Of a DNA stretch of 64,000 bases, positions 54,601-63,600 are shown one piece after another. This DNA comes from Podarcis vaucheri. Taxonomy: Eukaryota. The DNA lies in NCBI GenBank assembly GCA_965113315.1, contig OZ220367.1, one strand, 5' to 3'. Numbering within the stretch: position 1 is the first letter of the stretch; every line of letters begins with the position of its first letter. A program made the position numbers.

Positions 54601-57600
54601 TCATTTTTGTGTTCTGCATTTAAATGTTCATGGCATAAACCTCATGACAACATAGTGAGTTCACACGATCACTCTTTCGAAACGCTGACCTCTAAACAAG
54701 ATTTCCTGAAGTTGTAACTTACCCTTTTCTAACCACAATTCACTTATGAACTATTCCCCTTAAAAAAAGGACTTATGAATATGATCTTACTGTGAGTGGA
54801 ATAAGAAATGCTTTTGGCTGCTCCAAACACTAAAATAAAGTTAATCTGACCTTTTAAAAAGAGCCCTCTCCATTTTAACCAGCAGAATTGCTTTACATTT
54901 TGTCTTTACTGAAACAATCAGAGGAGAAATCTAATTTGAGTTTGAATAGATGAGCTGTCACACTCTAAATGTGCATACACAGTACCTTCACTGACATTAT
55001 GTCAATTGTATTTTTCTTCTTTTGAATACAAAAAAGGAGATAGCCCCAGTGCTTAAAATAACAAGTGAGAAACAAAGGCTCCTTTTCGTTAACCACCTAT
55101 AAGGACCTGAAAATACCTTGTTAGAAGGAACAAAGGCAACATTGCCTCTGTGTAGTAGCTAAAGCTCCAGCCCTTTCTGTCTGGCCAGGAATCAGGTATA
55201 AAGAGCCAGTTAAGAAACCCATGGGAAGTGTGAAAAAGGCAGAGCCAAAGTCTTCTTTCCTAGCTTCAAGCCATGTGAACTGTTCAGAATCAGAGCAATC
55301 TCAGCATGACTCCTGTCGCCACGCTATTGCATTGCTAGGAAATAATACAAGTGTGGTGCTTGGAGCTTTTGAAAGCCATCGGGATTGAGAAATCCTAGAA
55401 AGTTATTCTGTAAAAATATCACACACTGGGGATAAAGTAATATTCAAAATGTCTTTATGTATTTCTTTTTTAAAAACTATATGTGTCCTTTGATAATAAT
55501 ATCAGGGTGTGTTTTGAATAATTTTCTATATAGCGTGTTCTCATAAAAGAGAGAGCACGTGTTGCGGATGGGGCCGAACAAAACCCCCAGTTAGTGACCA
55601 GGCCATTGATGGCAATGGGCTGGAGTAGATTGGAAGAAGTTGTTACTGGGGCAAAATTGATGTTGCCAATTTAGGGGTGGGGTCAGACCCCTTATATAAG
55701 CAGGGTCCACAGCTTTCTCTTTCTCTTTCGCTGTGGACATCGGATCACATGGAGCACTTGGACTGTCTGGAGGACAGTGATGCAAACTTCTCATTGGTTA
55801 CATTTCTTTATTTCCCCCTTCTTTTAATCCTCTTTAGTCCCTTAAATAATTTAATTCCCCCTTTTCCTGTTCAATTTCCCACCCCACCCCTTACCCTGCC
55901 CTGTGGGAAGATTCTCCCTGTATCTGTGGCTTGCCTTTCTTTCGCAAAAAGGTTTCCCCCATTTCTCCTGTTGTAAATTGTGGGGCTAGTCAGGGCTGTT
56001 CCCAGCTTAGCTGGAATCACTTTCGTTTATAGCACCCCGAAGGTTGGCTTTATTTGAGTGTGTGCAGCGCTGTTGGCCAAATTTTAATCTAGCCTTGGGC
56101 GGGAGCACTATTTTGAGTTCCTTTAATATTGCTATGAGACTAAGATTCTCAAGAGCAGAGGCATGGAGGCCTATTCGGCCTGCGCATAACTTCCGAGCCT
56201 AAGTATGCTACAGGTAGCAGTTAATTGTTAAGTCTCTGACCTCTCTATAAGAATGTACCTGCTTGCAGGCTCAGTTGCCGCTAATGTATATCTGAGGCAG
56301 ACAGAGGGCGGCAGAGGCTCTCTGTGCCTCCAATGACTATGAGCACTCCGTATATGCTCTTGAACTATGCTGTTTCTGAACAAGTTTATTTTCTTTAAGT
56401 TTGTTTTGCCCTGATAGTGGCGACTGCCATTTTAGAGGCGAGCCATTGTGGTTTAGTGGCTAAAGTGTAGGACTAGGACCTGGGAGACAGGGTTCATATC
56501 CCCCTCTTAGCCATTGTTATAACAAAACAAAACAAACTGCTCCTTTTGGGCTATTCTGTTGCTGGGTAGTTCGGCCCATTTGTGATAAAAGAACTTTGGG
56601 TTTCTTGAAGGGGTGCTTCCCTCTAAAAGGGCAAGCAGGGGTGCCTGGACAAGCTGTGGGCTGCCTCAACTCTGCTATTTCACTGGAAACATTTATGCCT
56701 GGCCTAGCAGGTGATCCAAGGGCTTTGCCCTAGAATTCGATGGCCTGGAAGCATTTCCGGCCTGAATAGTGTCCCCATGTGGTCCACGAAGCATTGGTTT
56801 CACCAGTTCCTTACATTGTTTAGTTTTTGCGGACTATGACTGGGCTTTTGCAAATGCCTCAAGAGCTTGCCTCTCCTGCAGGGGATGACTTGTGGACGCC
56901 CCAGCTGTCTTCTTCCAGAAGGAAGCATCTTCGAAGGCTGCAATCCAGGAGGAGGGCAAAGAGGAGCAGGGATCATGATTCAGACATCACCTTGGACCTC
57001 TACAGGGGTCAGGGTGAGGCTGTCCTGGGTCTTTAGGGATCGTCCTGGATAGCTCAGCTGGTCAGCGCATAGTGCCGGTAATGCCTAGGTTGCAGGATTG
57101 GTCCCTATATGGGACAGCTGCATGCTCCCCCATTGCTCTACCTGGACACTTAGGTCCAGTCTCGAGGGCCTTTTGGTGGTTCCCTCACTGCGAGGGATGT
57201 AACAGGCGCCACGTTTGCAATATGCAAGCGGGAGAAAGCACCTTTGTGTGCCCGCACTGCAGTTTGCTCTGTGTGTTGCAGGGCTCAGCGCTGCACGGGC
57301 TGCATTTGCATTGCATTGCGTGAGAGATTTGCATTTGCATTGCACGGAGGTTGTGTGCATTGCACAGAGGGTGTGTGTGCATTGCACAGAGGGTGTGTGT
57401 GCATTGCACAGAATGTGTGTGTATTGCATAGAGTGTGTGTGCATTGCACGGAGGGTGTAGTGGCATTGCACAGAGTGTGTGTGTGTTTTTTGTGTTGTTG
57501 TTGTTTTTTGCATTGCACAGAGAGTGCATTGCACAGAGTGTGTAGTTGCATTGCATGGAGGGTAGTTGCATCGCACAGTGTGCGTTTTTGCATTGAACGG

Positions 57601-60600: not shown

Positions 60601-63600
60601 TATTGCACCCTGCTATTTTCTTCAAGACTGTTCCCCTCTTTGGGGCAGATGGGGGGTGCATCTTTCCCCTATGGGGAACGACACCTGGCGGGATGCGATT
60701 GCCTTGGGATTCATTGCTCCCCCACAATGTTGCTGGTACTGACAATATGGTGGGGCCCAGTCGTCAGTGCTGCCCTGCTGAGGTCAGGTGCAGCTAGTCA
60801 GGAACCAGTGCCTAGACAAACTACCACCAAAGAGGCCGGTAAGCATGTTAATAAGGAAGTGTAAAATAATAAAATAAAATAAAATAAAGAATAATAAAAT
60901 TCTTCAGGTCGGGCCGCTATCCGTATCTGGATAGTAGGGCACAGTATTGTGCATTGGGCTGCGGACAGAGCTCGTCAGTCTGGACTGGGCGATGGCCTGG
61001 GCTTTCCGCAGCACGTACAGTTGTCCTGGATCTCCAGAAGGGGGATGCTGTGGAGGGAATTCTTACCTCTCATGCAACGGCGTGTCCTACGGTTTGGCCC
61101 TCCTTCGGCGATCATGGTGCAGCTCGGGGAGAACGATATGGTTTCCTCTTCCTGCTATGGGCTGCGTGCTGCCATATTACAGGACCTTGGAGAGCTGGCG
61201 GCACTGGTGCCGTCAACTAAGCTAATTTGGTCACAGCTATTGCAACGCCACATTTGGCGAGGTAGTCCTTGCCCAGCCGCCACCGAACGTGTAAGGAAGC
61301 GGATTAATTCTGCGGCAAGCAAGCTGGTGGTGAATCTGGGCGGGTCTGTGATCCCTCACCCTCTGATTTCATTCAAGGCGATTGAATTTTATAGGGATGA
61401 CGGGGTTCATCTCTCGCCAGTTGGGAATGATGTGTGGTTGGATGCTATGGTGTCCAGGCTGAGGGTGTGGCTTAATTTGTGAGTGGTTGGCGGCGAGCGT
61501 AAGGGCTCGAATGGCGGTTAGGCATTGGTTAAAATTGGTTGGTGGAGGGGTATGGATTGGCTGTGCCTGCCCCTCCAATGCTGCTGCAGACGGGTATTCC
61601 GTTAAAGGAATTCTGAAGCTTACCATCCCCCTCGTCCAAACCCTGACGGCAGGGTGCGGGCCGTGTAAGCTTCAAGGAACATGCGCGGAGCAGTGAGAGT
61701 CTGTGACGCAGCTCCATCTGACTCTGACCATGTTTCCTCCGGGACTGGCTACGGAGTCAGTGCTGTCCCCCCAAGGCGGGGGGGGACAGGTAGTCATAAC
61801 CAATGCCTAAGCAACCACTCTCAATTTGTATAAAAATAAAGTTGTGGCCAAAATTATGCCAAAAACCTTAAACAAAAATTACGTGTGATGTCTGAGTTAT
61901 TGGGGTAGGGGTTTTGGGGGACCTCAGCACGCAAAGCGTGTTCTCATAAAAGAGAGAGCACGTGTTGCGGATGGGGCCGAACAAAACCCCCAGTTAGTGA
62001 CCAGGCCATTGATGGCAATGGGCTGGAGTAGATTGGAAGAAGTTGTTACTGGGGCAAAATTGATGTTGCCAATTTAGGGGTGGGGTCAGACCCCTTATAT
62101 AAGCAGGGTCCACAGCTTTCTCTTTCTCTTTCGCTGTGGACATCGGATCTCCCGCCCGCCCTCCCTTGATTTGGGCTTGCGCTTTGACCTTGCTCTGCCT
62201 GTCATGGGGTCGTTCGCCTTGGTGCGGGGGCCCAGTAGGAATTTGTCCAATTGGCTGATTAGTGCGTGCCTTTTGGGTTTTGCCTACTGCTTAGCAAATC
62301 GTCACAACTTGTAAGGTTGGCGGTTAGGCATTGGTTAAAATTGGTTGGTGGAGGGGTATGGATTGGCTGTGCCTGCCCCTCCAATGCTGCTGCAGACGGG
62401 TATTCCGTTAAAGGAATTCTGAAGCTTACCATCCCCCTCGTCCAAACCCTGACGGCAGGGTGCGGGCCGTGTAAGCTTCAAGGAACATGCGCGGAGCAGT
62501 GAGAGTCTGTGACGCAGCTCCATCTGACTCTGACCATGTTTCCTCCGGGACTGGCTACGGAGTCAGTGCTGTCCCCCCAAGGCGGGGGGGGACAGGTAGT
62601 CATAACCAATGCCTAAGCAACCACTCTCAATTTGTATAAAAATAAAGTTGTGGCCAAAATTATGCCAAAAACCTTAAACAAAAATTACGTGTGATGTCTG
62701 AGTTATTGGGGTAGGGGTTTTGGGGGACCTCAGCACGCAAATAGCAGACAGATGAAGAATCAGAAGTTCTTTCTTTTTATTTTTTCTTCCTTTCTCTCTT
62801 CTCTCGTTTTTTCTCCCTTTTGGTTTCTGTTTTTATTTAGTTTTATTATTTTTGATAAAAAGATATTGGACATTAACCTTATTACATTTTCTTTCAAACT
62901 TTAATAATAGTAGATGTGCATGAGACAAAAGGATGTCTGGAATTTGATTGGCAGAGTTGTTGCTATTTGCAGTAAGCAGCCCTTCCAGGGGGCAAATAAT
63001 AGCTGTGGGGAGGACCAGGAGTGCTTCTCTGATCCAGACTGAAGCACATTCCAGTTGGAAGGTCCATACAGCTTCTTTTCCTTCAAAACAAAAGCAGCCA
63101 GCTTTGACAAAGCTTCTAAAATAAGTGTGACTAACGTAACACTTTGTTTGGATCTAATCAATCCCAATTCTGTGTTCTAAATGTGATTGTGATGTTTTGC
63201 TAGGGAGTCAAGACGAAACCAGAACTGATGTGTATTCACCGATGTTGTTAATGTGTTATGCTTGACAAAATTTTCATAAGGAGTTGGGTTTCTGAGCATA
63301 TTTTTGCCCTTGCTGGTTTATATTTCTTCCAATGGCCAAAAATAAATCTGTACTGTTTCATCCTTTACAAAAATGTGACATGCACGTTAAAAAGTGCTAA
63401 GTAAAACTGACGAATCTTGCATCTTCTTTTCTAGGTTAAGCTAGATAATTTTGCAAAGCCAGATTTTATGCTCTTTGAACATTGAGTCCATTGAGTAACT
63501 CAGCTTCATGTCTCAATTATTTAATTCCAAGTCCACGGAGAGATTCTTAAAATAACGGCTTCAGAGGCCCAATGCCAAGAATTGGGATGGTAGCAGAGCA

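What the first reader, a model, noticed from the sequence alone, without database searches (positions are those of the whole stretch)
55533..62738. Recently mobilised Ngaro-type element with pristine split repeats but dead replication genes
Seen: A1=A2 (214 bp) and B1=B2 (421 bp) with no differences visible. The interior gag, RT/RNaseH and YR are full of stops and frameshifts, the RT core is deleted, and the region contains a SINE head and a minisatellite. Known: Ngaro elements have A1-ORFs-B1-A2-B2 split direct repeats, and the replication model regenerates the paired repeats each cycle. Inference: this is a non-autonomous element moved recently in trans by an active, possibly undescribed, squamate Ngaro family.
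Basis: partly seen in the sequence, partly recalled or inferred. Interest (0 to 1): 0.85.

Follow-up and report, generated by a model that had tools for sequence, protein, structure and literature searches.

The report
Chimeric Ngaro-type retroelement with identical repeats
A 7.2-kb copy of a tyrosine-recombinase retrotransposon has letter-perfect end repeats and one open hydrolase gene around a badly decayed interior, which suggests it was copied recently by enzymes borrowed from a working relative.

Summary
The repeats are real. A1 55532-55746 equals A2 61935-62149 (215 bp), and B1 61512-61935 equals B2 62318-62741 (424 bp), with 0 differences in 639 bp. The layout is the Ngaro split-direct-repeat plan.

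The interior is not uniformly dead. An aged 5.15-kb part runs 55747-60897 (CpG o/e 0.35). It holds a SINE-like piece, a 630-bp minisatellite where the RT core should be, frame-broken RNase H/recombinase remnants, and two older partial hydrolase-plus-B modules. A fresh 3' module runs 60898-62741 (CpG o/e 0.61). Its SGNH-hydrolase frame is open for 194 codons.

My best reading is a chimeric, non-autonomous Ngaro-type element inserted as one unit within about 1-5 My. Its ends and hydrolase would come from a recently active relative that supplied the enzymes.

RT, RNase H and gag were not confirmed by any profile tool. Sibling copies, an autonomous partner, the empty site and the host species could not be checked. 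Interest is moderate.

The parts
55532..62741 (+). Whole Ngaro-type element, 7,210 bp: A1, interior, B1, A2, spacer, B2
   Evidence: Outer limits of the exact repeats. The flanks share no duplication beyond one ambiguous A (read).
55532..55746 (+). A1 repeat, 215 bp, with CCAAT-like and TATA-like motifs (TATATAAG at 55693); presumed promoter
   Evidence: Identical to A2. Motif position. Promoter role is inferred.
55747..57039 (+). 5' interior of unknown identity. It is broken in all frames.
   Evidence: Across 55747-57310 the three + frames carry 18, 22 and 22 stops in about 521 codons. Pfam found no family on 5 pieces from this region: 4 and 1. The one piece further on, beside the minisatellite, gave zinc-ribbon hits at E 0.29-0.99 only. 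No similarity to A or the spacer. CpG o/e 0.27.
57040..57190 (+). SINE-like insertion (head and core, no tail)
   Evidence: 77% to window 1415-1511, a copy with a simple-repeat tail. 83% to 21434-21497. No tRNA call.
57311..57940 (+). Minisatellite, 22-bp unit x 28, sitting where the RT N-terminus and core would be
   Evidence: TRF and the repeat finder families D1, D2, D4. Position relative to RT is inferred.
57941..58200 (+). RT C-terminal remnant (broken gene; core absent)
   Evidence: Motif reading only. Pfam, PHROGs and PDB gave nothing relevant.
58376..58935 (+). RNase H-like remnant (broken gene)
   Evidence: Motif reading only. Pfam, PHROGs and PDB were negative.
58950..59815 (+). Tyrosine recombinase remnant (broken gene). 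It follows the RNase H remnant directly, leaving no room for a methyltransferase domain.
   Evidence: Atlas: the 81-aa N-terminal piece scores 0.95 to a Phage_int_SAM_1 cluster, and 9 of the 10 best family-bearing hits share one family or clan. Motif reading. Pfam, PHROGs and PDB were negative.
59868..60189 (+). Hydrolase copy 1 (broken gene, older lineage)
   Evidence: tblastn with copy 2: 41% over 126 aa, E 2.4e-26, 1 stop inside. BLASTP of its open piece: 55% over 69 aa, E 2e-25.
60190..60575 (+). B' : diverged full-length B homologue ending in an (AAAAT)n tail
   Evidence: Local alignment with B1 z = 20, 0 of 200 shuffles as good. 56% over 354 aligned columns. Tail.
60576..60709 (+). Fragment of a hydrolase C-terminus (older lineage)
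   Evidence: 60% nucleotide identity to the C-terminal part of copy 2 over 135 aligned columns. tblastn HSPs, combined E 1.3e-9.
60710..60897 (+). B'' : 3' half of a B homologue with an A-rich tail
   Evidence: 86.6% to B' over 194 bp. Against B1, z = 6.6, 0 of 200 shuffles.
60898..61482 (+). Hydrolase copy 2 (SGNH/GDSL type): frame open for 194 codons, no ATG at its start
   Evidence: Translation. 2 of 20,000 shuffles stay open. Pfam Lipase_GDSL E 0.003-0.004, 17.7-18.1 bits, below the 23.6 cut-off. Atlas 0.98, 0.98 and 0.96 to chordate and mollusc SGNH/Lipase_GDSL_2 clusters. CpG o/e 0.68.
61512..61935 (+). B1 repeat, 424 bp, with AATAAA at 61835
   Evidence: Identical to B2. Motif position.
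61935..62149 (+). A2 repeat, 215 bp (TATATAAG at 62096)
   Evidence: Identical to A1.
62150..62317 (+). Unique 168-bp spacer between A2 and B2
   Evidence: No other match in the window. No similarity to the interior. No unusual RNA fold, z +0.89. CpG o/e 0.64.
62318..62741 (+). B2 repeat, 424 bp, with AATAAA at 62641
   Evidence: Identical to B1.

Best explanation
This is one copy of a tyrosine-recombinase retrotransposon of the Ngaro type. It was inserted as a single 7,210-bp unit and cannot copy itself.

Shown:
- The split direct repeats are A1 ... B1-A2-(168 bp)-B2, with 0 differences.
- No target duplication longer than 1 nt.
- The interior has no open RT, RNase H or recombinase frame.
- A second hydrolase copy is open.
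- Wear differs sharply between the 3' module plus A1 and the rest.

Inferred mechanism:
- A carries the promoter (CCAAT and TATA motifs). Transcription would start about 20 nt before the end of A1 and end after the AATAAA in B2.
- That RNA lacks most of A1 and the last ~75 nt of B2. The internal B1-A2 joint supplies both during cDNA completion, so each cycle rewrites both repeat pairs as identical copies.
- A recombinase then joins the circular product to an AT-rich target without a duplication.
- This copy encodes none of those enzymes. They must have come in trans from an active relative whose A, B and hydrolase it carries.

Inferred origin: the template was a chimera of fresh ends and hydrolase joined to an aged remnant of older Ngaro-type elements. 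The joining could have been template switching or a read-through transcript. The remnant already carried the SINE-like piece, the minisatellite and two older hydrolase-B modules.

Unresolved: whether this chimera is a one-off or the founder or member of a non-autonomous family.
For: - Repeats: 215 + 424 bp exact, with no other copies in the window.
- The plan matches the published A1-[ORFs]-B1A2B2 (PMC8547959 passages; PMC9210276 passages). The latter also reports 100% identical repeats and an SGNH ORF after the recombinase.
- A short exclusive stretch between A2 and B2 has a precedent in VIPER/SIRE (PMC6681497 passages).
- Age: 0 of 639 sites differ, so the 95% upper bound is 1.2-4.7 My for assumed rates of 2e-9 to 5e-10 per site per year.
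- Contrast in wear: CpG o/e is 0.35 over 55747-60897 and 0.61 over 60898-62741; the window background is 0.21. Internal B' and B'' differ by 13.4%, JC 0.148.
- Hydrolase copy 2 is open for 194 codons, and 2 of 20,000 shuffles match that. Copy 1 is only 41-55% identical at protein level.
- Broken interior: 20, 20 and 36 stops per frame. At least 6 frame changes are needed to follow the 8 recognisable RNase H/recombinase pieces.
- Motifs: TATATAAG in A and AATAAA in B.
- Trans supply is feasible in this order of elements. DIRS-1 cDNA was integrated by endogenous proteins (PMC7192593 passages).
Against: - Only one copy could be examined, so no sibling, autonomous partner or empty site was seen.
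- RT and RNase H identity is by eye only. Pfam found no RT, RNase H or recombinase family in 27 submissions, PHROGs 0 of 9, and 3 PDB searches nothing relevant.
- The recombinase rests on one Atlas lead. That hit shares 168 features, just under the 170 the tool quotes as typical for true relatives.
- The hydrolase Pfam hit is below the curated cut-off. Its AlphaFold model was poor, pLDDT 41.
- The 168-bp spacer departs from the canonical contiguous B1A2B2.
- The transcription start and polyadenylation site are predicted from motifs only.
- The substitution rate is assumed, and the host species is unverified.
- Assembly polishing could have erased a few real differences between the repeats.
Confidence: 0.55

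Rival explanations
1. A head-to-tail pair of two elements. A long element (A1-interior-B1, 6,404 bp) is followed by a miniature SIRE-like element (A2-168 bp-B2, 807 bp). The pair arose by two integrations at the B/A joint, or by integration of a multimer.
For: The 168-bp spacer makes A2-spacer-B2 look like a self-contained short unit with its own TATA and AATAAA motifs. SIRE of T. cruzi is such a unit: A2 plus about 30 exclusive bp plus B2 (PMC6681497 passages). Isolated AB repeats are reported in Cafeteria (PMC8547959 passages).
Against: The canonical Ngaro plan already has this order, so the pair reading adds an event without explaining more. Both pairs being identical fits one event better than two. 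No free A-spacer-B unit occurs elsewhere in the window.
Confidence: 0.15
2. A composite built in place. An old Ngaro-type remnant lay at this locus. Parts of a young element were then added on both sides by later insertions into its own kind, followed by deletions. On this view the 7.2 kb never moved as one unit.
For: The interior holds three successive hydrolase-B modules of different age. DIRS-1 is reported to insert preferentially into earlier copies of itself (PMC7192593 passages).
Against: A simple insertion cannot place A1 left of the old remnant and B1A2B2 right of it. At least two insertions plus two precise deletions would be needed. The outer ends also meet AT-rich, non-repeat flanks of like composition, GC 0.37-0.42.
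Confidence: 0.13
3. Assembly or polishing artefact. The repeats are identical, or the order is as seen, because near-identical repeats were collapsed, mis-joined or homogenised during assembly.
For: Exact identity over 639 bp is what over-polishing of near-identical repeats can produce. No reads could be examined.
Against: The junctions A1/interior and interior/hydrolase 2 join unlike sequences, which is not where repeat-driven mis-joins arise. The order matches a published element plan. The whole unit is short enough for single long reads. The window holds no gap.
Confidence: 0.08
4. An old insertion whose repeat pairs were kept identical by gene conversion.
For: Conversion between direct repeats a few kb apart is known in general (my own knowledge).
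Against: It would not explain the open, CpG-rich hydrolase copy 2 or the CpG-rich unique spacer. Both pairs would have to be converted completely while B' and B'', which lie closer together, drifted 13% apart.
Confidence: 0.04

Closest known systems
Ngaro retrotransposons (DIRS order); reference members named in the papers read: Ngaro1_DR of zebrafish, DIRS-53_XT of Xenopus tropicalis
   Same: Split direct repeats with A1 at the 5' end and B1-A2-B2 at the 3' end, each pair identical. Gene order RT/RNase H, then recombinase, then an SGNH hydrolase. No methyltransferase. No target duplication (PMC9210276 and PMC8547959 passages; PMC4157794 passages).
   Different: 168 unique bp separate A2 from B2. 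The RT core is absent. RNase H and recombinase are broken. The interior carries two further older hydrolase-B modules, a SINE-like piece and a minisatellite. Repeat sizes are 215 and 424 bp, against 236 and 152 bp in DIRS-53_XT.
SIRE / VIPER of Trypanosoma cruzi
   Same: SIRE is a non-autonomous unit made of A2, a short exclusive stretch and B2 of a recombinase retroelement. This is the same layout as A2-spacer-B2 here (PMC6681497 passages).
   Different: The host and lineage are different, and the exclusive stretch is about 30 bp rather than 168 bp. Here the unit sits at the 3' end of a long decayed element, and no dispersed copies were seen in the window.
Non-autonomous LTR-retrotransposon derivatives (LARD/TRIM type; named from my own knowledge, no paper read)
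   Same: Intact terminal cis-acting repeats around a non-coding or decayed interior, copied by proteins of an autonomous relative.
   Different: Those use integrase and make target duplications. Here the ends are split direct repeats and integration leaves no duplication.
DIRS1-like elements (abundant in Anolis: 775 sequences, 42 families; PMC3266345 passages)
   Same: Retroelements with a tyrosine recombinase and terminal sequences restored from an internal copy.
   Different: DIRS1-like elements have inverted terminal repeats, an internal complementary region and a methyltransferase domain. No inverted repeat of 40 nt or more was found here. There is also no room for a methyltransferase between the RNase H and recombinase remnants.

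Membership tests
Ngaro (DIRS order) | Split direct repeats A1-[ORFs]-B1A2B2 with A1 = A2 and B1 = B2 | tested here: met
   215 bp and 424 bp, both 100% identical; B1 abuts A2. Deviation: 168 unique bp between A2 and B2.
Ngaro (DIRS order) | Internal repeats lie downstream of the recombinase, which has the same orientation as RT | tested here: met
   Recombinase remnant at ~58950-59815 on the + strand; B1-A2 at 61512-62149. The recombinase identity is itself only a lead.
Ngaro (DIRS order) | Reverse transcriptase / RNase H domains | tested here: inconclusive
   No profile hit: Pfam found no such family in 27 submissions, PHROGs 0 of 9, PDB nothing relevant. Only C-terminal RT and RNase H motifs were read by eye. 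The core region is occupied by a minisatellite.
Ngaro (DIRS order) | Tyrosine recombinase instead of a DDE integrase | tested here: inconclusive
   Atlas 0.95 to a Phage_int_SAM_1 cluster, 168 shared features. Catalytic-region motifs read by eye. Pfam, PHROGs and PDB negative.
Ngaro (DIRS order) | No methyltransferase domain (separates Ngaro from DIRS1-like and PAT) | tested here: met
   About 15 bp lie between the RNase H remnant and the recombinase N-terminal piece. No Pfam methyltransferase hit.
Ngaro (DIRS order) | SGNH hydrolase ORF after the recombinase (a subset: fish and amphibian members) | tested here: met
   Two copies. Copy 2: Pfam Lipase_GDSL E 0.003-0.004, below cut-off. Atlas 0.98 to chordate SGNH clusters, 10 of 10 best family-bearing hits in one clan. 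Ser, Gly, Asn and Asp-x-x-His blocks read; block names are recalled. Copy 1 is related to copy 2 at E 2e-25.
Ngaro (DIRS order) | Integration without target-site duplication | tested here: met
   The flanks share only one ambiguous A at the joints (read).
Ngaro (DIRS order) | RT or recombinase groups with Ngaro references in a phylogeny | not testable with these tools
   No reference proteins could be fetched.
Non-autonomous element moved in trans | Several dispersed copies share the same decayed interior and junctions | not testable with these tools
   No other copy in the 64-kb window. No eukaryotic genome collection was open.
Non-autonomous element moved in trans | An autonomous partner with the same A and B and open RT and recombinase frames | not testable with these tools
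   Same limit. Only indirect support: the open, CpG-rich hydrolase next to B1.
DIRS1-like | Inverted terminal repeats plus an internal complementary region | tested here: not met
   0 inverted repeat pairs of 40 nt or more in 53000-64000.

The most novel reading that the evidence does not exclude
The copy reports a Ngaro lineage that is active now or was within the last few million years in a squamate. One paper I read in passages called Ngaro absent from lizards (PMC4746887). It may also be the first vertebrate example of a non-autonomous Ngaro lineage that stays mobile by repeatedly taking on the 3' module (hydrolase-B) and promoter repeat of whichever autonomous family is active at the time. 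The three hydrolase-B modules, nested in order of age, would be the trace of that renewal.
Probability: 0.2. Interest if true: 0.65.

Novelty: new member of a known kind. Interest (0 to 1): 0.45.

Why it matters
Recombinase retrotransposons are rare in amniotes and are little studied. If the dating holds, identical split repeats are direct sequence evidence that the machinery of a Ngaro family worked in this genome within roughly the last 1-5 My. The copy also shows which parts a parasitic derivative keeps: both repeats, the B1-A2 joint and about 20 nt after the predicted start site. That bears on which cis sequences the replication model needs. The stack of three hydrolase-B modules of different age hints at repeated exchange of 3' ends between lineages. 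If the genome turns out to hold no siblings, the locus is simply one dead-on-arrival chimera and is of local interest only.

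Tried and rejected
I used stop-free pieces instead. No RT, RNase H, recombinase or gag family was found.
- PHROGs gave 0 of 9 pieces and NCBIfam gave 0 for hydrolase 2.
- PDB sequence searches gave nothing relevant: hydrolase 2 hit only a helicase at E 0.75. The three RT/RNase H/recombinase pieces gave hits at E >= 0.15, none related.
- The AlphaFold2 model of hydrolase 2 from a single sequence had pLDDT 41. No fold search was run, because such a model gives meaningless matches.
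- Rfam (gathering cut-off on the whole window, E-value cut-off on 56350-57300) and ARAGORN found no tRNA or other RNA family. The tRNA origin of the SINE-like head is therefore unproven.
- I tested whether the spacer is a diverged copy of the sequence after A1, or of anything in the interior. It is not: z is below 0 and there are no BLAST hits.
- I tested the spacer region for a structured RNA. There is none: z +0.89.
- I looked for other Ngaro-type copies in the window with blastn and tblastx. Only SINE and minisatellite matches appeared.
- I looked for a paralogous empty site using the flanks. Nothing matches within 1 kb of either joint.
- Pfam on 10 long ORFs elsewhere in the window, to identify host genes, gave 0 of 10.
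- I rejected DIRS1-like membership: no inverted repeats. I rejected an LTR-type element: no target duplication, and the repeats are split.

Full report
**Observation**

The window has no N. The repeat finder and exact extension give two repeat pairs:
- A1 55532-55746 = A2 61935-62149, 215 bp.
- B1 61512-61935 = B2 62318-62741, 424 bp.

Both pairs have zero differences. Neither repeat has any further copy in the 64 kb. B1 runs straight into A2, and one shared A makes the joint ambiguous by 1 nt. A2 does not run into B2. Between them lie 168 bp (62150-62317) that occur nowhere else in the window and resemble nothing in the interior. The element spans 55532-62741, 7,210 bp.

Read, the left flank ends in a TA-rich run and the right flank starts with unrelated sequence. 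Apart from the one ambiguous A there is no target duplication. No inverted repeat of 40 nt or more was found in 53000-64000.

**Interior, 5' to 3'**

- **55747-57039: no assignable identity.** Across 55747-57310 the three + frames carry 18, 22 and 22 stops in about 521 codons. Pfam found nothing on 5 pieces from this stretch. I could not verify that it is gag.
- **57040-57190: SINE-like piece.** It is 77% identical over 97 bp to window 1415-1511, a copy that ends in (TAA)14(AAC)14. It is 83% identical over 65 bp to 21434-21497. ARAGORN and Rfam call no tRNA.
- **About 57186-57275: a CX2C...CX2C stretch.** It gives only zinc-ribbon hits at E 0.29-0.99.
- **57311-57940: a minisatellite.** Period 22, 28 copies, 72% matches.
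- **After the minisatellite: gene remnants read by eye.** The three-frame translations show what I read, from my own knowledge of these enzymes, as three remnants:
 - the C-terminal part of an RT (~57941-58200);
 - an RNase H (~58376-58935);
 - a tyrosine recombinase (~58950-59815), with its N-terminal helical domain, its arginine boxes and the final tyrosine box.

No profile tool confirms these three readings:
- Pfam found no RT, RNase H or recombinase family in 27 submissions of stop-free pieces (10, 9, 8; some pieces overlap between calls). Its only match below E 0.1 is the hydrolase.
- PHROGs gave 0 of 9.
- Three PDB sequence searches gave only unrelated hits at E >= 0.15.
- The one supporting result is an Atlas lead for the 81-aa N-terminal recombinase piece. 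It scores 0.95 to a cluster in which 83% of members carry Phage_int_SAM_1. Of the ten best family-bearing hits, 9 share one family or clan. The hit shares 168 features, just under the 170 the tool gives as typical.

Nothing that could be the RT core lies between the 5' region and the RT C-terminal piece. The minisatellite occupies that place.

**Breaks, counted without places**

| Gene | Breaks |
|---|---|
| RT | One large loss of the N-terminal and core part. The remaining piece is a single open stretch of 85 codons. |
| RNase H and recombinase | At least 6 frame changes are needed to follow the 8 recognisable pieces, plus at least one in-frame stop between two consecutive pieces in the same frame. 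The three frames carry 20, 20 and 36 stops over about 642 codons. |
| Hydrolase copy 1 | One stop inside the 126-aa match, at least one frame change, and one internal deletion. |
| Hydrolase copy 2 | No stop and no frame change in 194 codons. No ATG at its start. |

**Three hydrolase-B modules**

1. Hydrolase copy 1 (59868-60189) is followed by B' (60190-60575). B' is a diverged but full-length homologue of B ending in (AAAAT)n.
 - Its local alignment with B1 gives z = 20, and 0 of 200 dinucleotide shuffles do as well.
 - Identity to B1 is 56% over 354 aligned columns.
2. A fragment of a hydrolase C-terminus (60576-60709) is followed by B'' (60710-60897).
 - The fragment is 60% identical to copy 2 over 135 aligned columns.
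 - B'' is 86.6% identical to B' over 194 bp.
 - Against B1, B'' gives z = 6.6, 0 of 200 shuffles.
3. Hydrolase copy 2 (60898-61482) is followed 30 bp later by B1.

Copy 1 and copy 2 are clearly related but distant: 41% over 126 aa at E 2.4e-26, and 55% over 69 aa at E 2e-25.

Evidence that copy 2 is an SGNH/GDSL hydrolase:
- Pfam Lipase_GDSL at E 0.003-0.004, 17.7-18.1 bits, below the 23.6-bit cut-off.
- Atlas scores of 0.98, 0.98 and 0.96 to eukaryotic clusters, commonest phyla Chordata, Chordata and Mollusca. Lipase_GDSL_2 is carried by 30%, 14% and 23% of their members. All 10 of the ten best family-bearing hits share one family or clan.
- The four SGNH blocks are readable. The block names are recalled.

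NCBIfam and PDB sequence searches found nothing. The AlphaFold model was poor at pLDDT 41, so I ran no fold search.

**Two ages in one element**

| Region | CpG observed/expected |
|---|---|
| Hydrolase 2 | 0.68 |
| Spacer | 0.64 |
| B | 0.54 |
| A | 0.47 |
| Whole 3' module, 60898-62741 | 0.61 |
| Interior, 55747-60897 | 0.35 |
| Coding remnants within the interior | 0.27-0.34 |
| Rest of the window | 0.21 |

- The hydrolase 2 frame stays open in only 2 of 20,000 shuffles.
- B' and B'' have drifted to a JC distance of 0.148, while A1/A2 and B1/B2 show 0 differences in 639 sites.
- With assumed neutral rates of 5e-10 to 2e-9 per site per year, 0 in 639 gives a 95% upper age of 4.7 to 1.2 My.

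The ends and hydrolase 2 are therefore fresh, and the 5.15 kb between them is much older. The element is a chimera.

**Mechanism (inferred)**

A carries CCAAT-like motifs and TATATAAG at 55693 and 62096. B carries AATAAA at 61835 and 62641. A transcript from A1 to B2 would start about 20 nt before the end of A1 and stop about 75 nt before the end of B2. It would lack most of A1 and the tail of B2, but it would contain the complete B1-A2 joint.

This is the logic published for the order. The internal copy restores the missing ends, as shown experimentally for the internal complementary region of DIRS-1 (PMC7192593, passages). The model for Ngaro is in Goodwin and Poulter 2004, which I did not see and only recall. 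Each cycle therefore rewrites both repeat pairs as identical copies, and integration by a recombinase leaves no duplication.

The A1/interior junction lies just after the predicted start site. A chimeric junction there would be carried through RNA while the upstream part of A is renewed from A2.

This copy has no open RT, RNase H or recombinase frame, so those enzymes must have come from another element. Integration of DIRS-1 cDNA by endogenous proteins is reported (PMC7192593, passages).

How the chimera arose cannot be told from one copy. Candidates are a template switch between a young RNA and a transcript of an old remnant, or read-through from an A promoter across an old cluster into a 5'-truncated young element.

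The spacer may be the 3' part of a longer ancestral A whose counterpart after A1 was replaced. Or it may be an element-specific stretch like the roughly 30 exclusive bp between A2 and B2 in VIPER/SIRE (PMC6681497, passages). It has no unusual RNA fold, z +0.89.

**Comparison with what is known**

The plan A1-[ORFs]-B1A2B2 and the absence of a methyltransferase define Ngaro (PMC8547959; PMC9210276; PMC4157794; PMC3266345; all read as passages). An SGNH ORF after the recombinase, and 100% identical repeats of 236 and 152 bp, are reported for Xenopus DIRS-53_XT.

On lizards the papers disagree:
- PMC4746887 (passages) states that Ngaro is absent from lizards and Xenopus.
[quoted passage not shown] It does not separate Ngaro from the rest of the DIRS order.

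My searches:
- Ngaro + lizard: 15 papers, 14 listed.
- Ngaro + Anolis: 9 papers.
- Ngaro + non-autonomous + tyrosine recombinase: 10 papers.
- DIRS + non-autonomous + tyrosine recombinase + trans: 41 papers, 15 listed.

I read passages in ten papers in all. None describes a lizard Ngaro family or a non-autonomous vertebrate Ngaro. This is not proof of absence. Supplementary Table S2 of PMC9210276 may show whether a spacer occurs in Xenopus Ngaro.

**What stayed unchecked**

The open genome collection holds only bacteria and archaea, so I did not scan it.
- These therefore remain open:
 - sibling copies;
 - an autonomous partner;
 - the empty site;
 - the phylogenetic place of the proteins;
 - the host species.
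- Nothing in the window was taken for human.
I noticed a pyrimidine run plus AG before both hydrolase copies but joined no exons.

**Verdict**

The element is a new, chimeric, non-autonomous member of a known kind. It is of moderate interest until the genome-wide search is done.

Noticed in passing
window 50520-50912: MITE-like DNA transposon at 50528-50904. It has perfect 17-bp terminal inverted repeats and an 8-bp direct duplication (CCATGAGA) on both sides. Its left end is repeated internally at 50764. It accounts for the GC 0.62 peak.
   Followed up: partly
window 1415-1640: SINE-like copy with a (TAA)14(AAC)14 tail. Its head is the same as the one inside the Ngaro-type element, 77% identical.
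   Followed up: partly
window 54180-54486, 47363-47717, 27260-27599, 19280-19600: Four copies of one interspersed repeat family, 76-87% identical, in both orientations.
   Followed up: no
window 21673-21712 and 53473-53529: Two related 16-bp tandem arrays, 88.9% identical over 45 bp. They may be tails of one SINE family, whose core also matches 57127-57190.
   Followed up: no
window ~59850-59870 and ~60898-60908: Both hydrolase copies are preceded by a short pyrimidine run ending in AG, like a splice acceptor (read). This would fit expression of the hydrolase from a spliced message. No exon model was built.
   Followed up: no
window ~56437-56515: A second stretch that looks by eye like a tRNA-derived SINE head, with box A and box B-like motifs. 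There is no Rfam or ARAGORN support and no other copy in the window.
   Followed up: partly
window ~57186-57275: Cysteine pattern CX2C...CX2C just upstream of the minisatellite, possibly the remnant of a gag zinc finger. Pfam gave zinc-ribbon hits at E 0.29-0.99 only. Zinc fingers in the gag of some recombinase retroelements are mentioned in PMC4157794 (passages).
   Followed up: partly
window 62096-62741: A2 has its own TATA motif and B2 its own AATAAA. A short transcript of about 0.5 kb (end of A, spacer, most of B) could therefore be made from the 3' end alone. This unit is laid out like SIRE of trypanosomes.
   Followed up: no
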